From the NCBI RefSeq assembly GCF_056746865.1, contig NZ_JBWKMP010000005.1: 64,000 bases of DNA. The stretch is one strand, 5' to 3'. Made by a program: the position numbers. The DNA comes from a plasmid. Positions 9,001-15,000 of the stretch are shown one piece after another. How positions within the stretch are numbered: the stretch's first letter is position 1; the number at the start of each line of letters is the position of its first letter.

Positions 9001-12000
9001 TTTGTTTTCTTCTCTAGGATATGTCAAAAAGGAAATGCAGGGATCAAGAGTGCGATTTTTCAATGCTGAAATTAATCACACAATATTAATGCATCGCCCA
9101 CATCCAGAAAGTTATATTAAAGGTGGAACGCTGAAAGCTATTAAACAGAACTTGAAAGAGGCTGGGGTTTTATGAAACATTTAAAATATAAAGGATATTT
9201 AGGTACGGTTGAGCCGGATTTTGAAAATAATATCCTGTATGGAAAGCTGGCATTTATTCGTGATCTGGTGACTTATGAGGCAGAAACATTGGCTGACCTG
9301 GAACGGGAATTTAAAACATCGGTTGATTTGTATTTACAGTCCTGTGTGGAGGACGGAAAGGAGCCTGACACGCCCTTTAAAGGTGTGTTTAACGTCAGGC
9401 TTGATCCAGAGCTGCATCGTCGGGTCGCTGAAATGGCGATGGAAGAAGATTTGTCGCTGAATGCCTTTGTCAATAAGGCACTGGAAAAAGAAGTCAGTCA
9501 TCATCGCGCAGGGGCTTAATCGCCCCTTTTTGTTGCTCGCAGGCGTTGATGTTTCTTGGTATTACGGTGTAGTGTGTTGTATTTACAAACAATGCTTTAC
9601 GGTGTATTACGATGCATACTCTTTAATTGCTTGCAATCTCTTTTCACGTTCGTTGCTTTGTTCAGCTTTTTTCAATTCACTGAATATGTACTCTTCATCT
9701 TTACCCGTGAGTTTTGAACCGGAGAGCAAGCGATTAACAACTTTACGTCGAATTGCAGGGTAATCTTTGGTTTTATCGAGTATGGACAATATGCGGTCAC
9801 TACTAAGAATCTGGCCTTTCCCTGATTCCACATAATGTAGAAAAAATGCGATTGCGGACACGCCCAAAAGCACTGTAAGGACGGCTACACCATCAAGACG
9901 AAACTTTGATATAAAGGAATACGCGACCACTCCAATAATTGCTAAGCAGAGACATAAATAAATTAAGAGGTTTTTGTTGCGTTGTTTTTTTTGTGCGCGA
10001 TCATGATCATCTATGATTGCCAGTATCTTTTCTGGAGTTGCTTGAGCCATTTTTTTTCCTTATCAGGGAGACGGAGTGTTCAATCATCTGGCTTTACAAT
10101 GTAAAGCTGTGTTTGTCTTTACGGTGTAAATAATGAGATGTGCAGTTAAAAGTGTCAATCAGGTATCATATAGTAAAACACTATATGATTTTTCTGTAAT
10201 AGGCTTAAAAAATTCTCGCTTACATTGTAAAGGTCTTTGTGTCTTTACAGTGCACCACGTTGTAAATCACTGCCTTCTGTGGAGATAATCATGTTTTTTT
10301 CTGTTGGTGTCGAAACACCGAAAGATGATCAGACTGCATACGGCATCACTGTTCCGGCTTTTGATTGTTTTGGTTTTGGATGTGTTTCTGCGGCTGATTC
10401 TCAGGCAGAAATACCCGCTATGGCGCGTGAAGCGATATTGGCAATCGTGGAAGATATGGTATTAAGCGGTGCTTATTCTGTTGATGATATTCATGATGAA
10501 GGGTGTTTGACTTATTCGGATCACTCCAATTATAAGCACTGTGATAGCTGGTTTTTGGTTGATGTCGATTTAACATTAGACATGCCGTAGTCCGGCTATC
10601 GGGTCATGAGGACGCTGAAGAATATCGCAGGCATATATTTACAGTGTAAAGGTGTTTCTGTCTTTACATTGTAAGGCTTATTGAATACTACACTGTAGTG
10701 CAATGTATGTGTTTTTATGACCTATCCCCGCGTTGTGCGGGGATTTTTTTTGATAGCTAACCGCTCGCCGCAGTCTAGCGACCGAGCATAGCGAGCGAGT
10801 GACGAGGAAGCGGAAGATCCACCGTTGCCAGGAGAAAAGCAGGTACGCACTATGCATTCTGCCCTAGTGATGCTTTCACAAACCACGCGGCCTGAACTAT
10901 TACGCCATGAATCCAGCGCAAATCGGCATCACGATTTTCTTTTTTCATTTTTTCGCCACTTAAAGCCTTGCTTACGTGACTTTTTACCAGATTTTCGTGT
11001 AATTCTTTTGCTTCTTCAATTGTGAAACCACCAGGCAAATTTGGCGCTTCTGCTTCCAGTGATGCCAGAGCAATTTCATAAGCCCGGCGCTCAATATTGT
11101 CTCGCACGTCCAGGCTGCCGATTCGCTCCCTGATTTCTTTAATTAGTTTCTTGTCGTCGTCGGTAAATGTTGTCATCTCACTCTCCTTTGGCGTCAATGT
11201 TTACAGCCTGGCAAGCCTCTTTGAGCACCCAGTCAATAGCGTCTTTCCATGCCCCTGTTTCGACGGGAGGATTCGTGTGCTTTACCTGATCGTAGAAGCG
11301 TACTGCGTTTACCAGTCCTCTTGTTGGTGCTGCTATCGCAGGTGGTAAGTTGTAGAGTTCCTGAATTTCATAGTTCGGCCTGTCGTTGCAGTCTTCTTTT
11401 GTCGGCACGTATTTCCAGTCACCAACCCACGTTTTACCCTGAGAGTCCGTAACGTCTTTTTTCACGTAACGATACCTCCATGCAACAACCCCAGCTTCCA
11501 GCGATGCCAGTGCGATTTCATAAGCCCGGCGTTCAATATTGTCTCGCACGTCCAAGCTGCCGATTCGCTCTCTGATTTCTTTAATCAGTCCCTTGTCGTC
11601 GTCGGTAAAAGTTGTCATTAGTGACTCCTTTTCATATCTATGGTTTTCTTGAATCAATTTCGTCTAGTTTGAGTTTTATATTTTGCTGGTCTGATTTTGG
11701 TAATTTTCTCATGCTCTCTTCAGTTATTTTTTTCATATCAAGAAAAGCTCTTGCATAGAAGCGCAGGCTTGCCTCTTTTTCATGTTGTGCAACATACCAG
11801 GTTGCGCCAGAAAATGCCGCAGACAGGCATAATGTGCACAAGGCACAAATTGCAATGGCTGTTCTTGTACTGAAGGGTTTTACAGCCTTAGATAATGACT
11901 TCAACTTTTCTTCATATAATTTGTTGTTTTTTTCCTGGTTGCGTTTAATTCCAGATATGAGTTCAATAATATCATCTGTTAATTTTTCTTTTACCTCAAC

Positions 12001-15000
12001 ACTTGTTTCTTTTAGATCGTTTTTTCCCTCTTCTACTTTTTCTTTTATTTCATTATCCAGATCGCCGCACGTCTCAACAATATTCTTGAATCTTTGAATA
12101 TAGTCATTTTCTACAGATGAAACGACCTGTCTGAAGCCCTCAGACAGGGCAGTGAAGTTAGCTTGTAACTCATTGCTGAATTTTTCCTGTATCTTTTGGT
12201 TCAGAAAAATTAATGAAATAACTGGATCATCTTTTGATATTTTATGCCCTGTCTCCTTGAATACATCAACAATAAAATTATCAATATCTTCACTGGAAAC
12301 AGCCTTTTCAGGCTGTTTTAATTCTGGCTGATTAACTGTACTCATATTATTCACCGTGTTCATCGTCATAGATGCTATCTAATTGTTTGTAAATGTCATT
12401 GAAGACTCGTTTTAATCGTGATTTAGCCATTAATCCAAAATGGTCGGACTCAAGAGCTTCTTTCAGTGTTAGTGATTTTTCTGTTAGCTCTTTGATGTCA
12501 GAGGCAAAGGCATCACTTTTTCTGTCCTGAATAACCACAACGCCAGCGATTACATCCTTGTTTTTTTCAATGAATTTAGTTTCTATTAATGGGATATTTT
12601 CAAGTGCTGGAATACCCTGAAATTCATTTATCCAGACAATAAGTTTTACCTTACTTCCTTTAACCAGTTCTTTCAGTTCTTCAAATCCCTGCAAGGTATC
12701 CGCAAGAGCTTGTCCACCAACGATAACAGTATGGATATAAACGTCTTGTTCTACATCTTCAAACATGTCCATAACACAGTTATCATTGAAATACTGAATT
12801 AACGGTAAAAATGTAGATGCGCCATTGTCAATAACAAAAGTATTCTGACTATTGGTCAGCATTGATTCGAACATTGGATCGAATTTGGATTGTATTACTT
12901 TGCTGTTTTCAGTGATTTGTATCAAATCTGCATTTAATCTTTTTACTTTAACCGTAGTTGTATTAACCGGGTCTGTGTCACCGACTACGATATTATCCAT
13001 GTGATTTTCATCAATAAAGTATTGTGCCAGTATTGCGGTCGCGAATGATTTTCCAACACCACCTTTACCCTGAAGGATGAAATTGATTGAGTTTTTCATT
13101 TATAATGCTCCTTTACTTAAAGATATTTATTTATGAATTTTTCATTCGTAGCACTTGGATCGTGCTCTATTTCTTTTTTGTTCTCACTAATGTTTGAAAA
13201 AAAACCTTTTACCCCCCCTCTCGGTTCATCGCCTTTAGCTTCATTCTGATCAATTACATCTATGGTTTTTGCCTGTTCTTTTGGTTCAGTGCATTTTTGT
13301 CTTTTTTTAGCCCTCTCTGTCATATTTATATAAGTCTTTTGGGCTAGTTCTGTCTTGGTGTTGTTGTTTATGTAATCAGCTATTTGCTCCCATGTATAAT
13401 ATTTCTTTGCTTCAAGTATATTTTGCAAATACATATTGAAGACAGCCTGTTTTGATTTCGATTTTGTTTCGTTTATAGCCTCGCATATTGGAGATAATAA
13501 ACTCTCGATCTTTTTCATTTGTTACATTTCCTCTCTCTCTCTACCTCCTACATTGGCATAATACCTTATTTAAAGCAATTTGCTCGCCGTTTGTGTGGGT
13601 GATTATGTGGGTTGTTTTGTGGGTTGTCAATGGGGTTGTGGTCTTTTTTGTGGGTTAAAGTGTGGGCGATTGTGTGGGCTGTGTGTTTTGAGTTGTGGGT
13701 GATTATGTGAGTCATTGTGTGGGCTGTATGCACGGCATTTTTTTGTTCTGCTAAAACACAGGCACGATACCGATTGTACACAAGACCGTTCCGGTCATGT
13801 TACAATCGTGTGCCAAAGGGGGACGCCCCTTTGAAACCCCGAACGATGCAGCCGTTCTTATGCGGTTCTACGAACCTTGAGGACATATGAAGAAAAAAAC
13901 CAACAAAAACGTTCATGTAACATTCAGACTTACCGAAGAAGAATATGCTCCGTTCGATAGGGCTATAAAAGAGCTTAATATTAGTAAGTCTGAATTTTTC
14001 AGGCTGCTTACTATTGGTAAAATAAACACATATGCATCTGATAAACGTAACATACCAGAATACAAACGTTGTCTTTCTCAGTTGAGTTGGGCAGGAAACA
14101 ACATAAATCAAATAGCGCACCGATTAAATTCAGATCATTTAAAAGGTATTATATCAGAATCGCTTTATAAAAAGGTTTTAAATGGACTAATCGGTATTCG
14201 TGATCGCCTTCAGGAGATAGCTAAATGATTGTCAGATACGGTGGTGGTAATGATGGTATCGTTGATTATCTGATAAATGGTCGCAAAGCAGAACGCCAGT
14301 ACACGCGTGATGAACTTGATCATCGTGTTGTTCTTGATGGTGATTTACAGACTACAGATAAGATTATTGATTCTATTGAAAACAAAAGTCAGGAACGTTA
14401 TTTGCACATTACTCTGTCTTTTCATGAAAGTCATGTGTCGAATGAAGTGTTAAAGGCTGTTGTTGATGATTATAAAAAATTATTGATGAATGCTTATCAT
14501 CCTGATGAATACTCTTTTTATGCGGAAGCTCATTTGCCTAAAATTCGTCATATCCAGGATAATAGCACTGGTGAACTTGTTGAAAGAAAACCACATATTC
14601 ATATTGTAATTCCTAAAGTAAATTTGATTACTGAAAAGTTCCTAAATCCAGTGGGAGATGTTACCAAAGGGCATACAATTGAACAGCTTGATGCTATACA
14701 GGAATTTATTAATAATAAATATAATCTTGATAGCCCTAAAGACTATCCGCGTAAAGATGCGGATTACGGAAAAATTATAAGTAGAGTTAAGGGGGATCTT
14801 TACAAAGAGCATCACTCTGAATTGAAAGGTGAGTTGCTTTCGCGTATAGAGAACGAGAAAATTGAAAATTACTCTGTATTCAAAGATATTGTTGCAGAGT
14901 ATGGTGAACTTCGTATAAGAAATGCTGGTAAAACCAATGAGTATCTGGCTGTAAAATTGCCTGGAGATAAAAAATACACAAACTTAAAAAGTCCTCTTTT

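What the first reader, a model, noticed from the sequence alone, without database searches (positions are those of the whole stretch)
11638..13886. StbABC-like operon with an iteron-like TGTGGG array beside the candidate oriT
A three-gene minus-strand operon (133-aa protein, ParA/MinD-like ATPase with KGGVGKS, coiled-coil membrane-anchored protein) diverges from the mobC-relaxase operon. Between them lie about 11 TGTGGG-containing direct repeats at helical-turn spacing (13591-13730) and a nested inverted-repeat region (13740-13886). The layout parallels the R388 stbABC-oriT arrangement, where StbA binds direct repeats and StbB balances conjugation against segregation. This implies a second partition-like system in addition to parA at 436-1101.
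Basis: inference. Interest (0 to 1): 0.5.

Follow-up and report, generated by a model that had tools for sequence, protein, structure and literature searches.

The report
IncI2 plasmid transfer-origin helper operon
Next to the transfer origin of this colistin-resistance (mcr-1) IncI2 plasmid sits a known kind of three-gene helper operon, plus a real array of twelve 12-bp repeats that most likely binds the operon's first protein to regulate and assist conjugation; it is an ordinary but poorly annotated member of the StbABC / TraK-TraL-TraM class.

Summary
The window is an mcr-1 IncI2 plasmid. Between a minus-strand three-gene operon and the divergent mobC-relaxase operon lie 12 phased 12-bp units (8 exact TGTGGG, 4 degenerate) in three blocks of four. 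Beside them are two conserved hairpins that form the oriT core.

Guynet et al. 2011 list IncI-2/MOBP6 among plasmids with stbABC-like operons in the leading region.

Refinements from this work:
- The ATPase is the IncP TraL type (KGGVGKS, 33% identical to IncP-1 TraL), not the R388 StbB type.
- The repeat motif co-varies with this first gene across relatives. R721 has the same MobC and oriT core, but a swapped 1.86-kb cassette carries different repeats and an StbB-type ATPase. This points to the 133-aa protein as the repeat binder.
- A strong promoter-like site lies inside the array, which suggests autoregulation.
- Published TP114 transposon data show conjugation phenotypes but no maintenance phenotype, so a "second partition system" is not supported.

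Verdict: new member of a known kind, modest interest.

The parts
13117..13518 (-). First gene: 133-aa protein (often annotated 'zinc transporter' or hypothetical). It has an StbA-like N-terminal helical DNA-binding domain (residues about 1-77) and a disordered C-terminal tail ending in ...EIEHDPSATNEKFINKYL.
12347..13099 (-). Second gene: 250-aa ParA/MinD-superfamily ATPase of the IncP TraL type (deviant Walker A, KGGVGKS).
   Evidence: NCBIfam PRK13886 TraL, E=1e-53, full length, 182 bits, below the curated cutoff of 360. BLASTP to IncP-1 TraL 33% identity over 238 aa, E=1e-45. No significant similarity to R721 StbB. Homologues in 1288 plasmid records.
11638..12369 (-). Third gene: 243-aa protein (RefSeq start at 12345 gives 235 aa). 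It has a TraM-like N-terminal segment, a coiled-coil middle and one TM helix (about residues 170-195). The C-terminal 78 aa are identical to the third protein of R721.
   Evidence: Weak NCBIfam TraM (E=1.1e-3) and StbC (E=1.5e-3) hits. BLASTP to IncP-1 TraM N-terminus, E=2e-4. BLASTP to the R721 199-aa protein, E=1e-66, with the C-terminal 78 aa identical.
13590..13725 (+). Array of 12 direct 12-bp units (consensus ATTGTGTGGGTT) in three blocks of four. Proposed binding platform and operator for the 133-aa protein.
   Evidence: It is unique in the window. Its motif co-varies with the first gene across relatives.
13602..13630 (-). Promoter-like site for the operon embedded in block 1 of the array: -35 TTGACA (13630-13625), 17-nt spacer, -10 CATAAT (13607-13602).
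   Evidence: 11 of 12 consensus matches. The TTGACA is conserved at the same place in the arrays of L006, L013, L015 and L004.
13745..13766 (-). Predicted nic region on the transferred (minus) strand: ...TATCGTGCCTGTGTTTTAGC..., just 3' of the large hairpin. Also the right-hand junction of the cassette exchanged with R721 (13750/13751).
   Evidence: CGTGCCT is invariant in 7 relatives. The resemblance to the IncP/IncI1 nick sequence (Y)ATCCTG|Y is recalled from memory. The homology break with R721 is at 13751. The nick position itself is inferred, not shown.
13761..13814 (.). Large imperfect inverted repeat (GGCACGATACCGATTGTA ... TACAATCGTGTGCC) with an inner hairpin GACCG/CGGTC. Part of the oriT core.
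   Evidence: The inner stem has a different sequence in each of 7 relatives, yet a stem is predicted at the same position in all 7 (in L013 only 3 pairs with a larger loop). A promoter-like site for mobC (TACACA-18-TACAAT, 13777-13806) lies inside it.
13814..13833 (.). Second oriT-core hairpin: CAAAGGGG-gacg-CCCCTTTG.
   Evidence: Conserved in all 7 relatives.
13864..13876 (+). Conserved box GGTTCTACGAACC just upstream of the mobC ribosome-binding site. Function unknown.
   Evidence: TCTACGA and the C two positions downstream are invariant in the 7-sequence alignment.
13887..14228 (+). mobC/nikA-type relaxosome accessory protein (113 aa).
   Evidence: Annotation WP_000730722.1, the identical protein in R721. 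Weak MbpA and VirD1 NCBIfam hits.
14225..18538 (+). MOBP relaxase (1437 aa, LPD7 domain) with an internal 18-bp tandem repeat encoding (ATEQ[AE]Q)n.
   Evidence: MOB-suite typing MOBP / MPF_T.
11895..13750 (.). 1.86-kb cassette with no DNA homology to the IncI2 prototype R721, flanked by 94-98% identical sequence. It contains the array, the promoter, the first gene, the ATPase and the N-terminal two-thirds of the third gene.
   Evidence: blastn of window against R721: homologous blocks 11494-11894 and 13751-17189 only.

Best explanation
This is the leading-region accessory module of an IncI2 (MOBP6) conjugative plasmid. It is a TraL-type version of the StbABC / TraK-TraL-TraM class.

Proposed mechanism:
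1. The 133-aa protein uses its N-terminal StbA-like helix-turn-helix domain to bind the twelve 12-bp TGTGGG units cooperatively. This builds a nucleoprotein platform directly on the leading-strand side of the nick site.
2. The operon's promoter lies inside block 1 of the array, so the same binding autoregulates the operon.
3. The protein's disordered C-terminal tail engages the TraL-type ParA-like ATPase, and possibly the membrane-anchored third protein. Together they help bring the relaxosome-bound oriT to the type IV secretion system.
4. The module therefore serves conjugation. Vegetative partition is handled by the separate ParA at 436-1101.

Shown here: the anatomy, the statistical reality of the array, the TraL homology, the co-inheritance and co-variation of repeats with the first gene, and the conserved oriT hairpins.

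Inferred: DNA binding by the 133-aa protein, autoregulation, the tail-ATPase contact, the nick position and the recruitment role.
For: (1) Array statistics: 7 spaced-pair hits against 0.22 expected, all in 13594-13723; 12 phased units.

(2) Natural swap experiments.
- R721 has the identical MobC protein and a 97.9% identical oriT core and relaxase. Its cassette between the nick region and the middle of the third gene is different, with GCTATGT repeats at 11 bp, an unrelated N-terminal domain in the first protein and an StbB-type ATPase.
- Conversely, L015 keeps an 83%-identical first protein and TGTGGG/12-bp repeats but has a diverged oriT core and a different accessory protein.
- More distant family members have TGTGTG/12 bp (L006, L013, L011). 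Other first-gene families have 11-bp or 10-bp arrays of other motifs (L007, L014, L018). The same tool recovers the known R388 stbDRs as a positive control.

(4) Promoter-like site with 11 of 12 matches inside block 1, with a conserved TTGACA.

(5) ATPase is 33% identical to IncP-1 TraL, with the same gene order as traK-traL-traM beside oriT.

(6) The C-terminal part of the first protein tracks the ATPase type in 11 loci. TraL-type neighbours go with short tails containing D/N-[PA]-[STN]-[AP], as in the TraK consensus FTFDATPKKEDL. StbB-type neighbours go with other C-terminal domains.

(7) Published TP114 transposon data: TP114-043 and traL are scored as needed for conjugation (++ for in vitro plus in situ) and not for maintenance, while parA is needed for maintenance.

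(8) Published R388 and RP4 precedents: StbA binds the stbDRs, and TraK binds between nic and traK.

(9) pBuzz-like 2.1-kb rolling-circle plasmids carry exactly the array (11 units, about 97% identical) plus an IncI2-type oriT core and no stb gene. This is consistent with a cis-acting role of the array in mobilisation.
Against: - There is no direct binding, footprint or nick-mapping evidence for any IncI2 plasmid.
- Similarity to StbA is remote. There is no Pfam, NCBIfam or PDB sequence hit, and Foldseek gave nothing significant.
- The TP114 phenotypes are graded ('+' and '-' in single conditions), may be polar, and I could not retrieve the TP114 sequence to prove its genes 043-045 are this cassette. 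That identification rests on the 'zinc transporter' and 'traL' annotations.
- In R388, loss of stbA raises conjugation 50-fold, whereas TP114-043 insertions were depleted after transfer. The regulatory logic may therefore differ.
- IncP-1 TraK regions show no direct repeats, so the RP4 analogy is architectural only.
- Retention of the array in small plasmids could be hitch-hiking.
- The tail/ATPase co-variation rests on 11 loci.
Confidence: 0.65

Rival explanations
1. The array is a true partition centromere, equivalent to stbS of R388. The 133-aa protein would be a centromere-binding protein that positions plasmid copies on the nucleoid, giving the plasmid a second stability system. Any effect on conjugation would be secondary.
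For: The N-terminal domain resembles StbA. Repeat sets upstream of the first gene mirror stbS, which is two sets of five stbDRs. The 12-bp direct repeats in sets also recall tubC of type III partition systems, as discussed in the StbA preprint.
Against: TP114 transposon data show no maintenance requirement for TP114-043, traL or TP114-045, while the same screen detected parA as essential for maintenance. A dedicated ParA family partition ATPase is present at 436-1101. A redundant contribution cannot be excluded by a selection-based screen.
Confidence: 0.17
2. The repeats are accessory binding sites for the relaxosome proteins (MobC/NikA or the relaxase) and belong to oriT proper, independent of the 133-aa protein.
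For: They adjoin the oriT hairpins. Small mobilisable plasmids keep the array together with the oriT core.
Against: R721 encodes the identical MobC protein and a 97.9% identical oriT core and relaxase N-terminus, yet has a completely different repeat array. L015 has the same repeats with a different accessory protein and a diverged oriT core.
Confidence: 0.04
3. The repeats are replication iterons or incompatibility determinants bound by a Rep protein.
For: Only the superficial form: phased direct repeats of about 12 bp.
Against: The array is about 12 kb from repA in the 100%-identical plasmid pXDL-MCR-1.18. It lies between two transfer operons and is swapped together with the stb-like genes, not with repA. 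In the 2.1-kb plasmid it accompanies oriT-like segments, while replication there is by a rolling-circle Rep.
Confidence: 0.02
4. The array is non-functional TG-rich simple sequence that arose by slippage.
For: TG-rich composition. Tandem Repeats Finder scores are modest.
Against: The strict 12-bp phasing in three blocks is retained at 83%, 51% and 39% identity of the first-gene protein, with motif changes that track that protein. A consensus promoter is embedded in it. It is the only such cluster in 64 kb.
Confidence: 0.02

Closest known systems
IncP-1 (RP4/RK2) Tra1 leader operon traK-traL-traM with the TraK-binding region of oriT
   Same: The position and orientation match: three genes diverging from the accessory-protein/relaxase operon across oriT, on the leading side. 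The second protein is a clear homologue of TraL (33% identity, E=1e-45). The third protein's N-terminus resembles TraM (E=2e-4). The first proteins have similar sizes (133 vs 132 aa) and a similar short C-terminal D-[AP]-[ST]-[AP] tail. According to the literature quoted, TraK binds the region between nic and traK.
   Different: The first protein is not a detectable TraK/PF17273 member. IncP-1 has no direct-repeat array in that interval, whereas here there are 12 phased repeats. The third protein is longer and carries a coiled-coil and a TM helix. The relaxase is a large LPD7-domain MOBP6 enzyme with a MobC-type rather than TraJ-type accessory protein.
R388 (IncW) stbABC operon with stbS / stbDR repeats
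   Same: A three-gene operon beside oriT in the leading region. Sets of short direct repeats lie upstream of the first gene and overlap its promoter. The N-terminal domain of the first protein resembles the solved StbA HTH domain 7PC1. The second gene is a ParA-superfamily ATPase. The third gene is dispensable in both R388 and TP114.
   Different: The ATPase has KGGVGKS rather than SGxxGK[ST] and no detectable pairwise similarity to an StbB protein. Repeats are 12 x 12 bp of TGTGGG in three sets, against 10 x 11 bp of TTGCATCAT in two sets. No additional operator clusters occur elsewhere in the plasmid, unlike the StbA regulon of R388. No maintenance phenotype was seen in TP114, whereas R388 stbA deletion causes loss. 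The relaxase family is MOBP, not MOBF.
R721 (IncI2 prototype) yciA-stbB-third gene module
   Same: It occupies the same plasmid backbone and the same slot, with identical MobC and 98% identical oriT core and relaxase. The C-terminal 78 aa of the third protein are identical. It also has a direct-repeat array between the first gene and oriT.
   Different: It is a different cassette: an StbB-type ATPase, a 159-aa first protein with a different N-terminal domain and a VCFN...NYIRNKR C-terminal domain, and GCTATGT repeats at 11-bp spacing.

Membership tests
StbABC system (R388 type) | Three-gene operon in the leading region beside oriT, divergent from the relaxase operon | tested here: met
   Gene order and orientation. 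Same layout in R388 and described for IncI-2 in PMC3098194.
StbABC system (R388 type) | First protein homologous to StbA (N-terminal HTH domain, PDB 7PC1) | tested here: inconclusive
StbABC system (R388 type) | Second protein an StbB-type ATPase with the SGxxGK[T/S] motif | tested here: not met
   The motif here is KGGVGKS. BLASTP to R721 StbB gives E=0.21. RefSeq and NCBIfam place it with TraL.
StbABC system (R388 type) | Sets of short direct repeats upstream of the first gene, bound by the first protein | tested here: inconclusive
   The repeats are present and co-vary with the first gene. Binding itself is not testable with these tools.
StbABC system (R388 type) | First gene required for vegetative stability | not testable with these tools
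   Published TP114 transposon data report no maintenance requirement, which argues against this feature. No experiment was done here.
IncP-type leader operon TraK-TraL-TraM | TraL-family ATPase | tested here: met
   33% identity over 238 aa to IncP-1 TraL, E=1e-45. NCBIfam PRK13886 E=1e-53 over the full length, although the 182-bit score is below the curated cutoff of 360 bits.
IncP-type leader operon TraK-TraL-TraM | TraK-family (Pfam PF17273/DUF5338) oriT-binding protein as first gene | tested here: not met
   No PF17273 hit at E<=10. Profile-profile comparison against 31 TraK-family proteins gives E=0.11, prob 0.5%. Only the short C-terminal tail motif looks similar.
IncP-type leader operon TraK-TraL-TraM | TraM-family third protein | tested here: inconclusive
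   Only residues about 26-101 match (NCBIfam E=1.1e-3, 18.6 bits against a cutoff of 139; BLASTP E=2e-4). The rest of the protein is unrelated.
MOBP oriT (IncP/IncI1-like nick region) | Inverted repeat followed within about 8 nt by a nick sequence resembling YATCCTG|Y on the strand that leads into the stb/traK side | tested here: inconclusive
   The hairpins are conserved with compensatory changes. An invariant CGTGCCT lies at or just 3' of the hairpin base on the minus strand. The consensus comparison is from memory and the nick is not mapped.
Replication iterons | Repeats adjacent to, and bound by, the plasmid's Rep initiator at oriV | tested here: not met
   The array is about 12 kb from repA in the identical plasmid. 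It is exchanged with the stb-like genes, not with repA.

The most novel reading that the evidence does not exclude
The first-gene proteins of these modules may be two-part adaptors. A rapidly diversifying N-terminal HTH domain would read a private direct-repeat 'address' beside nic. A C-terminal tail or domain would be matched to one of two ATPase types (TraL or StbB).

Whole cassettes (address array, adaptor, ATPase and the N-terminal part of the third protein) would then be exchanged between plasmids by recombination at the nick site itself. Here the R721/window junction at 13750/13751 lies about 8-10 nt from the hairpin base.

Tiny relaxase-less plasmids copy the address array together with the oriT core, which would make the array a cis-acting requirement or enhancer for IncI2-mediated mobilisation. 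That would make it a potential specific target for blocking the spread of mcr-1 plasmids.
Probability: 0.3. Interest if true: 0.55.

Novelty: new member of a known kind. Interest (0 to 1): 0.3.

Why it matters
IncI2 plasmids of this type are the main vehicles of mcr-1 colistin resistance, and TP114-like IncI2 plasmids transfer very efficiently in the gut.

The module beside oriT is mis-annotated in hundreds of records, as 'zinc transporter' or 'hypothetical'. In TP114 it contributes to conjugation, most consistently in the combined in vitro + in situ condition. Assigning the 133-aa protein as the likely repeat-binding StbA-like adaptor of a TraL-type ATPase gives concrete, cheap experiments.

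The natural cassette swap with R721 provides ready-made specificity controls. Conceptually it adds a well-defined case to the open question of what TraL/StbB ATPases do in conjugation. It does not reveal a new kind of system.

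Tried and rejected
- Pfam, NCBIfam and PDB sequence searches with the 133-aa protein or its family profile found nothing meaningful.
- Profile comparison with the IncP TraK family was not significant, so I do not call the protein a TraK.
- A position-weight-matrix scan for further operator clusters elsewhere in the window, to look for an R388-like StbA regulon, found only chance-level single hits.
- TP114 (MF521836) is not in the plasmid collection. Its genes 043-045 are therefore equated with this cassette only through their annotations.
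- The supplements of the TAP paper, which used a TP114 oriT fragment, are not held. No experimentally delimited IncI2 oriT could be compared.
- Literature searches for IncI2 oriT, nick site or TraL function found no dedicated study.
- I considered replication iterons, MobC/relaxase binding sites and simple-sequence slippage. Each was rejected on the cassette-swap and co-variation evidence.
- I could not decide between two nick candidates 3 nt apart (TATCGTG|CC and GTGCCTG|TG), or the alternative of about 8 nt after the hairpin base.

Full report
**Identity of the window**

The region 11000-14300 is 100% identical to many about 60-kb E. coli, Shigella and Salmonella plasmids typed IncI2 / MOBP / MPF_T. 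One example is pXDL-MCR-1.18, NZ_CP043036.1. The first 9 kb match NZ_AP018355.1. An MCR-1 gene lies at 19829-21454. The finding therefore sits in the transfer-origin region of an mcr-1 IncI2 plasmid.

**Checking the observation**

The repeat array is real:
- 8 of the 14 plus-strand TGTGGG hexamers in the 64-kb window fall within 13594-13723.
- The spaced pair TGTGGGN6TGTGGG with at most 1 mismatch occurs 7 times, all in this stretch. Dinucleotide shuffles give 0.22 +/- 0.52, and none of 100 shuffles reaches 7.

Read in register, the array is 12 units of 12 bp (consensus ATTGTGTGGGTT) in three blocks of four, starting at 13590, 13633 and 13678. The spacing is 12 bp rather than one helical turn. 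Four units are degenerate. One of them (GTCAATGGGGTT) carries the complement of a TTGACA -35 hexamer.

A weight-matrix scan finds no other cluster in the window.

The inverted repeats are also real. On the minus strand they fold into two adjacent hairpins: CAAAGGGG/CCCCTTTG, and a large imperfect stem GGCAC...GTGCC with an inner stem-loop. The same two-hairpin architecture is predicted for six related oriT regions. In these the inner stem has a completely different sequence each time, yet a stem is still predicted at the same position (in L013 only 3 pairs).

**The proteins**

*Second protein.* The 250-aa protein is a ParA/MinD-superfamily ATPase of the IncP TraL type.
- NCBIfam PRK13886 matches at E=1e-53 over the full length.
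- It is 33% identical to IncP-1 TraL, E=1e-45.
- Homologues occur in 1288 plasmid records.
- It shows no significant pairwise similarity to the StbB protein of R721.

*Third protein.* It is a mosaic.
- Residues about 26-101 weakly resemble the N-terminus of IncP TraM.
- The middle is coiled-coil.
- The last 78 residues, including the TM helix, are identical to the third protein of R721.

*First protein.* The 133-aa protein has no Pfam, NCBIfam or PDB sequence match. Several records name it 'zinc transporter'.
- An exhaustive HMM search found 52 representatives at E<=1e-3. They share a conserved N-terminal domain of about 75 residues (KSKQ motif, W43, M66, R69) and have variable C-termini.
- AlphaFold2 models this N-terminal domain confidently as five helices and leaves the tail disordered.
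- Profile-profile comparison with an StbA family alignment gives E=5.5e-5. With N-terminal domains only and R721 removed it gives E=3.1e-5, prob 73%, in register over 69 columns.
- Comparison with the TraK (PF17273) family is not significant (E=0.11).

I therefore regard the first protein as a remote StbA-like HTH protein, not a TraK-family member.

**What the literature already says**

- Guynet et al. 2011 (PMC3098194) report that StbB homologues sit in three-gene operons in the leading region of MOBF11, MOBP11, MOBP6 and MOBP13/14 plasmids, IncI-2 included.
- The same paper divides StbB-like proteins into a KGGxxK[T/S] group (TraL_RP4 type) and an SGxxGK[T/S] group (R388 type), with MOBP6 plasmids in both.
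- It also reports that PSI-BLAST links StbA with TraK_RP4 and YciA_R721.
- The StbA structure preprint repeats the synteny statement for PTU-I2.
- For R388, StbA binds two sets of five 9-bp repeats upstream of stbA. It represses its own promoter and is needed for stability. StbB is needed for conjugation but not for stability.

I found no study of the IncI2 repeats, nick site or TraL-type module.

**Comparative evidence that the repeats belong to the first gene**

blastn of the window against R721 shows homology at 11494-11894 (94%) and 13751-17189 (97.9%). Nothing matches in between.

R721 encodes the identical MobC protein (WP_000730722.1) and the same oriT hairpins. In the 1.8-kb gap it carries a different cassette:
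- about 9 GCTATGT repeats at 11-bp spacing;
- a 159-aa first protein;
- an StbB-family ATPase;
- a different N-terminal part of the third protein.

The converse case is L015. It has an 83%-identical first protein, TGTGGG repeats at 12 bp and a TraL-type ATPase. Its oriT core is diverged and it has a DUF6290-type accessory protein.

| Locus or plasmid | First-gene protein | Repeat motif | Spacing |
|---|---|---|---|
| Window | 133 aa (reference) | TGTGGG | 12 bp |
| L015 | same family, 83% identical | TGTGGG | 12 bp |
| L006, L013 | same family, 51% identical | TGTGTG | 12 bp |
| L011 | same family, 39% identical | TGTGTG | 12 bp |
| L007 | other N-terminal type | TGCTAyC | 11 bp |
| L014 | other N-terminal type | TGCCGTT | 11 bp |
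| L018 | annotated TraK-family | ATCGCR | 10 bp |
| R388 (positive control) | StbA | known stbDRs | 11 bp |
| IncP-1 | TraK | no repeats found | - |

The repeat motif and period therefore follow the first-gene protein, not MobC, the relaxase or the oriT core. This is what is expected if the 133-aa protein is the repeat binder.

**Regulation**

The best sigma-70-like site in the intergenic region is on the minus strand inside block 1. It reads TTGACA-17-CATAAT, with 11 of 12 consensus matches. Its -35 hexamer is conserved in the arrays of L006, L013, L015 and L004. Occupancy of block 1 would occlude it, so autoregulation as in R388 is the natural inference. A weaker promoter-like site for mobC lies inside the large hairpin.

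**Function**

In the IncI2 plasmid TP114, high-density transposon mutagenesis gave the following scores (PMC7508951 Supplementary Data 1).

|---|---|---|---|---|
| TP114-043 ('putative zinc transporter') | - | + | - | ++ |
| traL (TP114-044) | - | - | + | ++ |
| TP114-045 | - | - | - | - |
| parA | ++ | ++ | ++ | ++ |

- The 'Soft-core' conservation of genes 043-045 fits the cassette swap.
- I could not fetch the TP114 sequence. The equation with this cassette rests on the annotations, and polarity is possible.
- The ORF at 436-1101 is a ParA family partition ATPase (E=2.9e-29).
- The module thus looks like a conjugation accessory system rather than a second partition system.

**Further observations that shape the model**

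1. The C-terminal part of the first protein tracks the ATPase type.
   - Proteins next to TraL-type ATPases end in a short tail with D/N-[PA]-[STN]-[AP]. These are the window, L015, L006/L013, L011, L007 and IncP TraK. The TraK family's conserved FTFDATPKKEDL is of this form.
   - Proteins next to StbB-type ATPases carry other C-terminal domains. These are R721, L010, L012 and R388.
   - The same KSKQ N-terminal domain occurs with either type.
   - This suggests an adaptor with a DNA-reading head and an ATPase-matching tail. It rests on 11 loci and is an inference.

2. The right junction of the R721/window cassette (13750/13751) lies 8-10 nt from the base of the large hairpin on the minus strand. 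That is where a MOBP-type nick would be expected. CGTGCCT at the hairpin base is invariant in seven relatives. By my recollection, the IncP and IncI1 nick sequences are (Y)ATCCTG|Y. Exchange at nic is plausible but unproven.

3. pBuzz-like rolling-circle plasmids of 2.1 kb (for example NZ_CP104514.1) have only a rep gene.
   - They carry an IncI1-type oriT-like segment (L004 1681-1765).
   - Separately, they carry the TGTGGG array (11 units, about 97% identical) fused to an IncI2-type oriT core, with no stb-like gene.
   - The literature describes pBuzz-type plasmids as relaxase-less and carrying oriT mimics of various Inc types.
   - Retention of the whole array in such a minimal plasmid is consistent with a cis-acting role in mobilisation. 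Hitch-hiking cannot be excluded.

**Verdict**

This is an StbABC-class module, but of the TraL type, and it is not evidently a partition system.
- It is a new, mis-annotated member of a known and published kind.
- Interest is modest. The most useful products are the protein assignment, the natural specificity controls (R721, L015) and the predicted nick region.

Noticed in passing
L004 (NZ_CP104514.1, 2096 bp) 1681-1765 and 1921-2096 + 1-95; also CP082613.1 and NZ_CP140408.1: Tiny rolling-circle (ColpVC/pBuzz-like) plasmids with only a rep gene carry two oriT mimics. One is an IncI1/R64-like segment ending ...ACATCCTGTCCCG. The other is the IncI2 TGTGGG array (11 units) plus a variant IncI2 oriT core whose inner hairpin arms are replaced by a different but still self-complementary sequence.
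   Followed up: partly
window 11895-13750 versus L003 (R721) 27229-28997: A clean cassette exchange between IncI2 plasmids. A TraL-type module is present here (and in at least 450 records) where R721 has an StbB-type module. The junctions are at the predicted nick region and in the middle of the third gene, so the third protein is a chimera whose last 78 aa are identical in both plasmids.
   Followed up: yes
window 16650-16874: An 18-bp tandem repeat (12.5 copies, 91% matches) inside the relaxase gene encodes (ATEQ[AE]Q)n. The relaxase here is 1437 aa against 1272 aa in R721, and window-R721 homology is interrupted at 17189-17709. The linker region of this relaxase is therefore length-variable.
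   Followed up: no
window 10850-11197 and 11178-11657 (minus strand): Two adjacent, slightly overlapping ORFs downstream of the operon share a nearly identical N-terminal segment of about 40 aa (MTTFTDDDK.LIKEIRERIGSLDVRDNIERRAYEIALASLEA) and then diverge. They are paralogous leading-region genes of unknown function. TP114 annotation calls the equivalents 'valyl-tRNA synthase', which is surely wrong.
   Followed up: no
window 78-362 and 436-1101 (minus strand); 1286-2933: The real partition locus is a ParA family partition ATPase (221 aa) followed by a 94-aa protein with no family hit, possibly the centromere-binding partner. An IS200/IS605-type element (TnpA-like 178 aa and TnpB-like 402 aa) lies immediately next to it.
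   Followed up: partly
window 13864-13876: The box GGTTCTACGAACC just upstream of the mobC ribosome-binding site is almost invariant across seven otherwise diverged oriT regions. This includes the small rep-only plasmid, which has no mobC. That suggests a cis-acting oriT element rather than a translation signal.
   Followed up: no
window 19829-21454: A 541-aa ORF is MCR-1 (NCBIfam NF000465, 1302 bits, above cutoff). It lies about 1.3 kb downstream of the relaxase gene, and the gap is large enough for an insertion sequence.
   Followed up: partly
L018 (NZ_CP149986.1) 1876-2013: A plasmid whose first gene is annotated 'TraK family protein' has two blocks of ATCGCR repeats at 10-bp spacing upstream of traK, whereas IncP-1 traK regions show none. 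Direct-repeat arrays therefore also occur with annotated TraK-family proteins.
   Followed up: no
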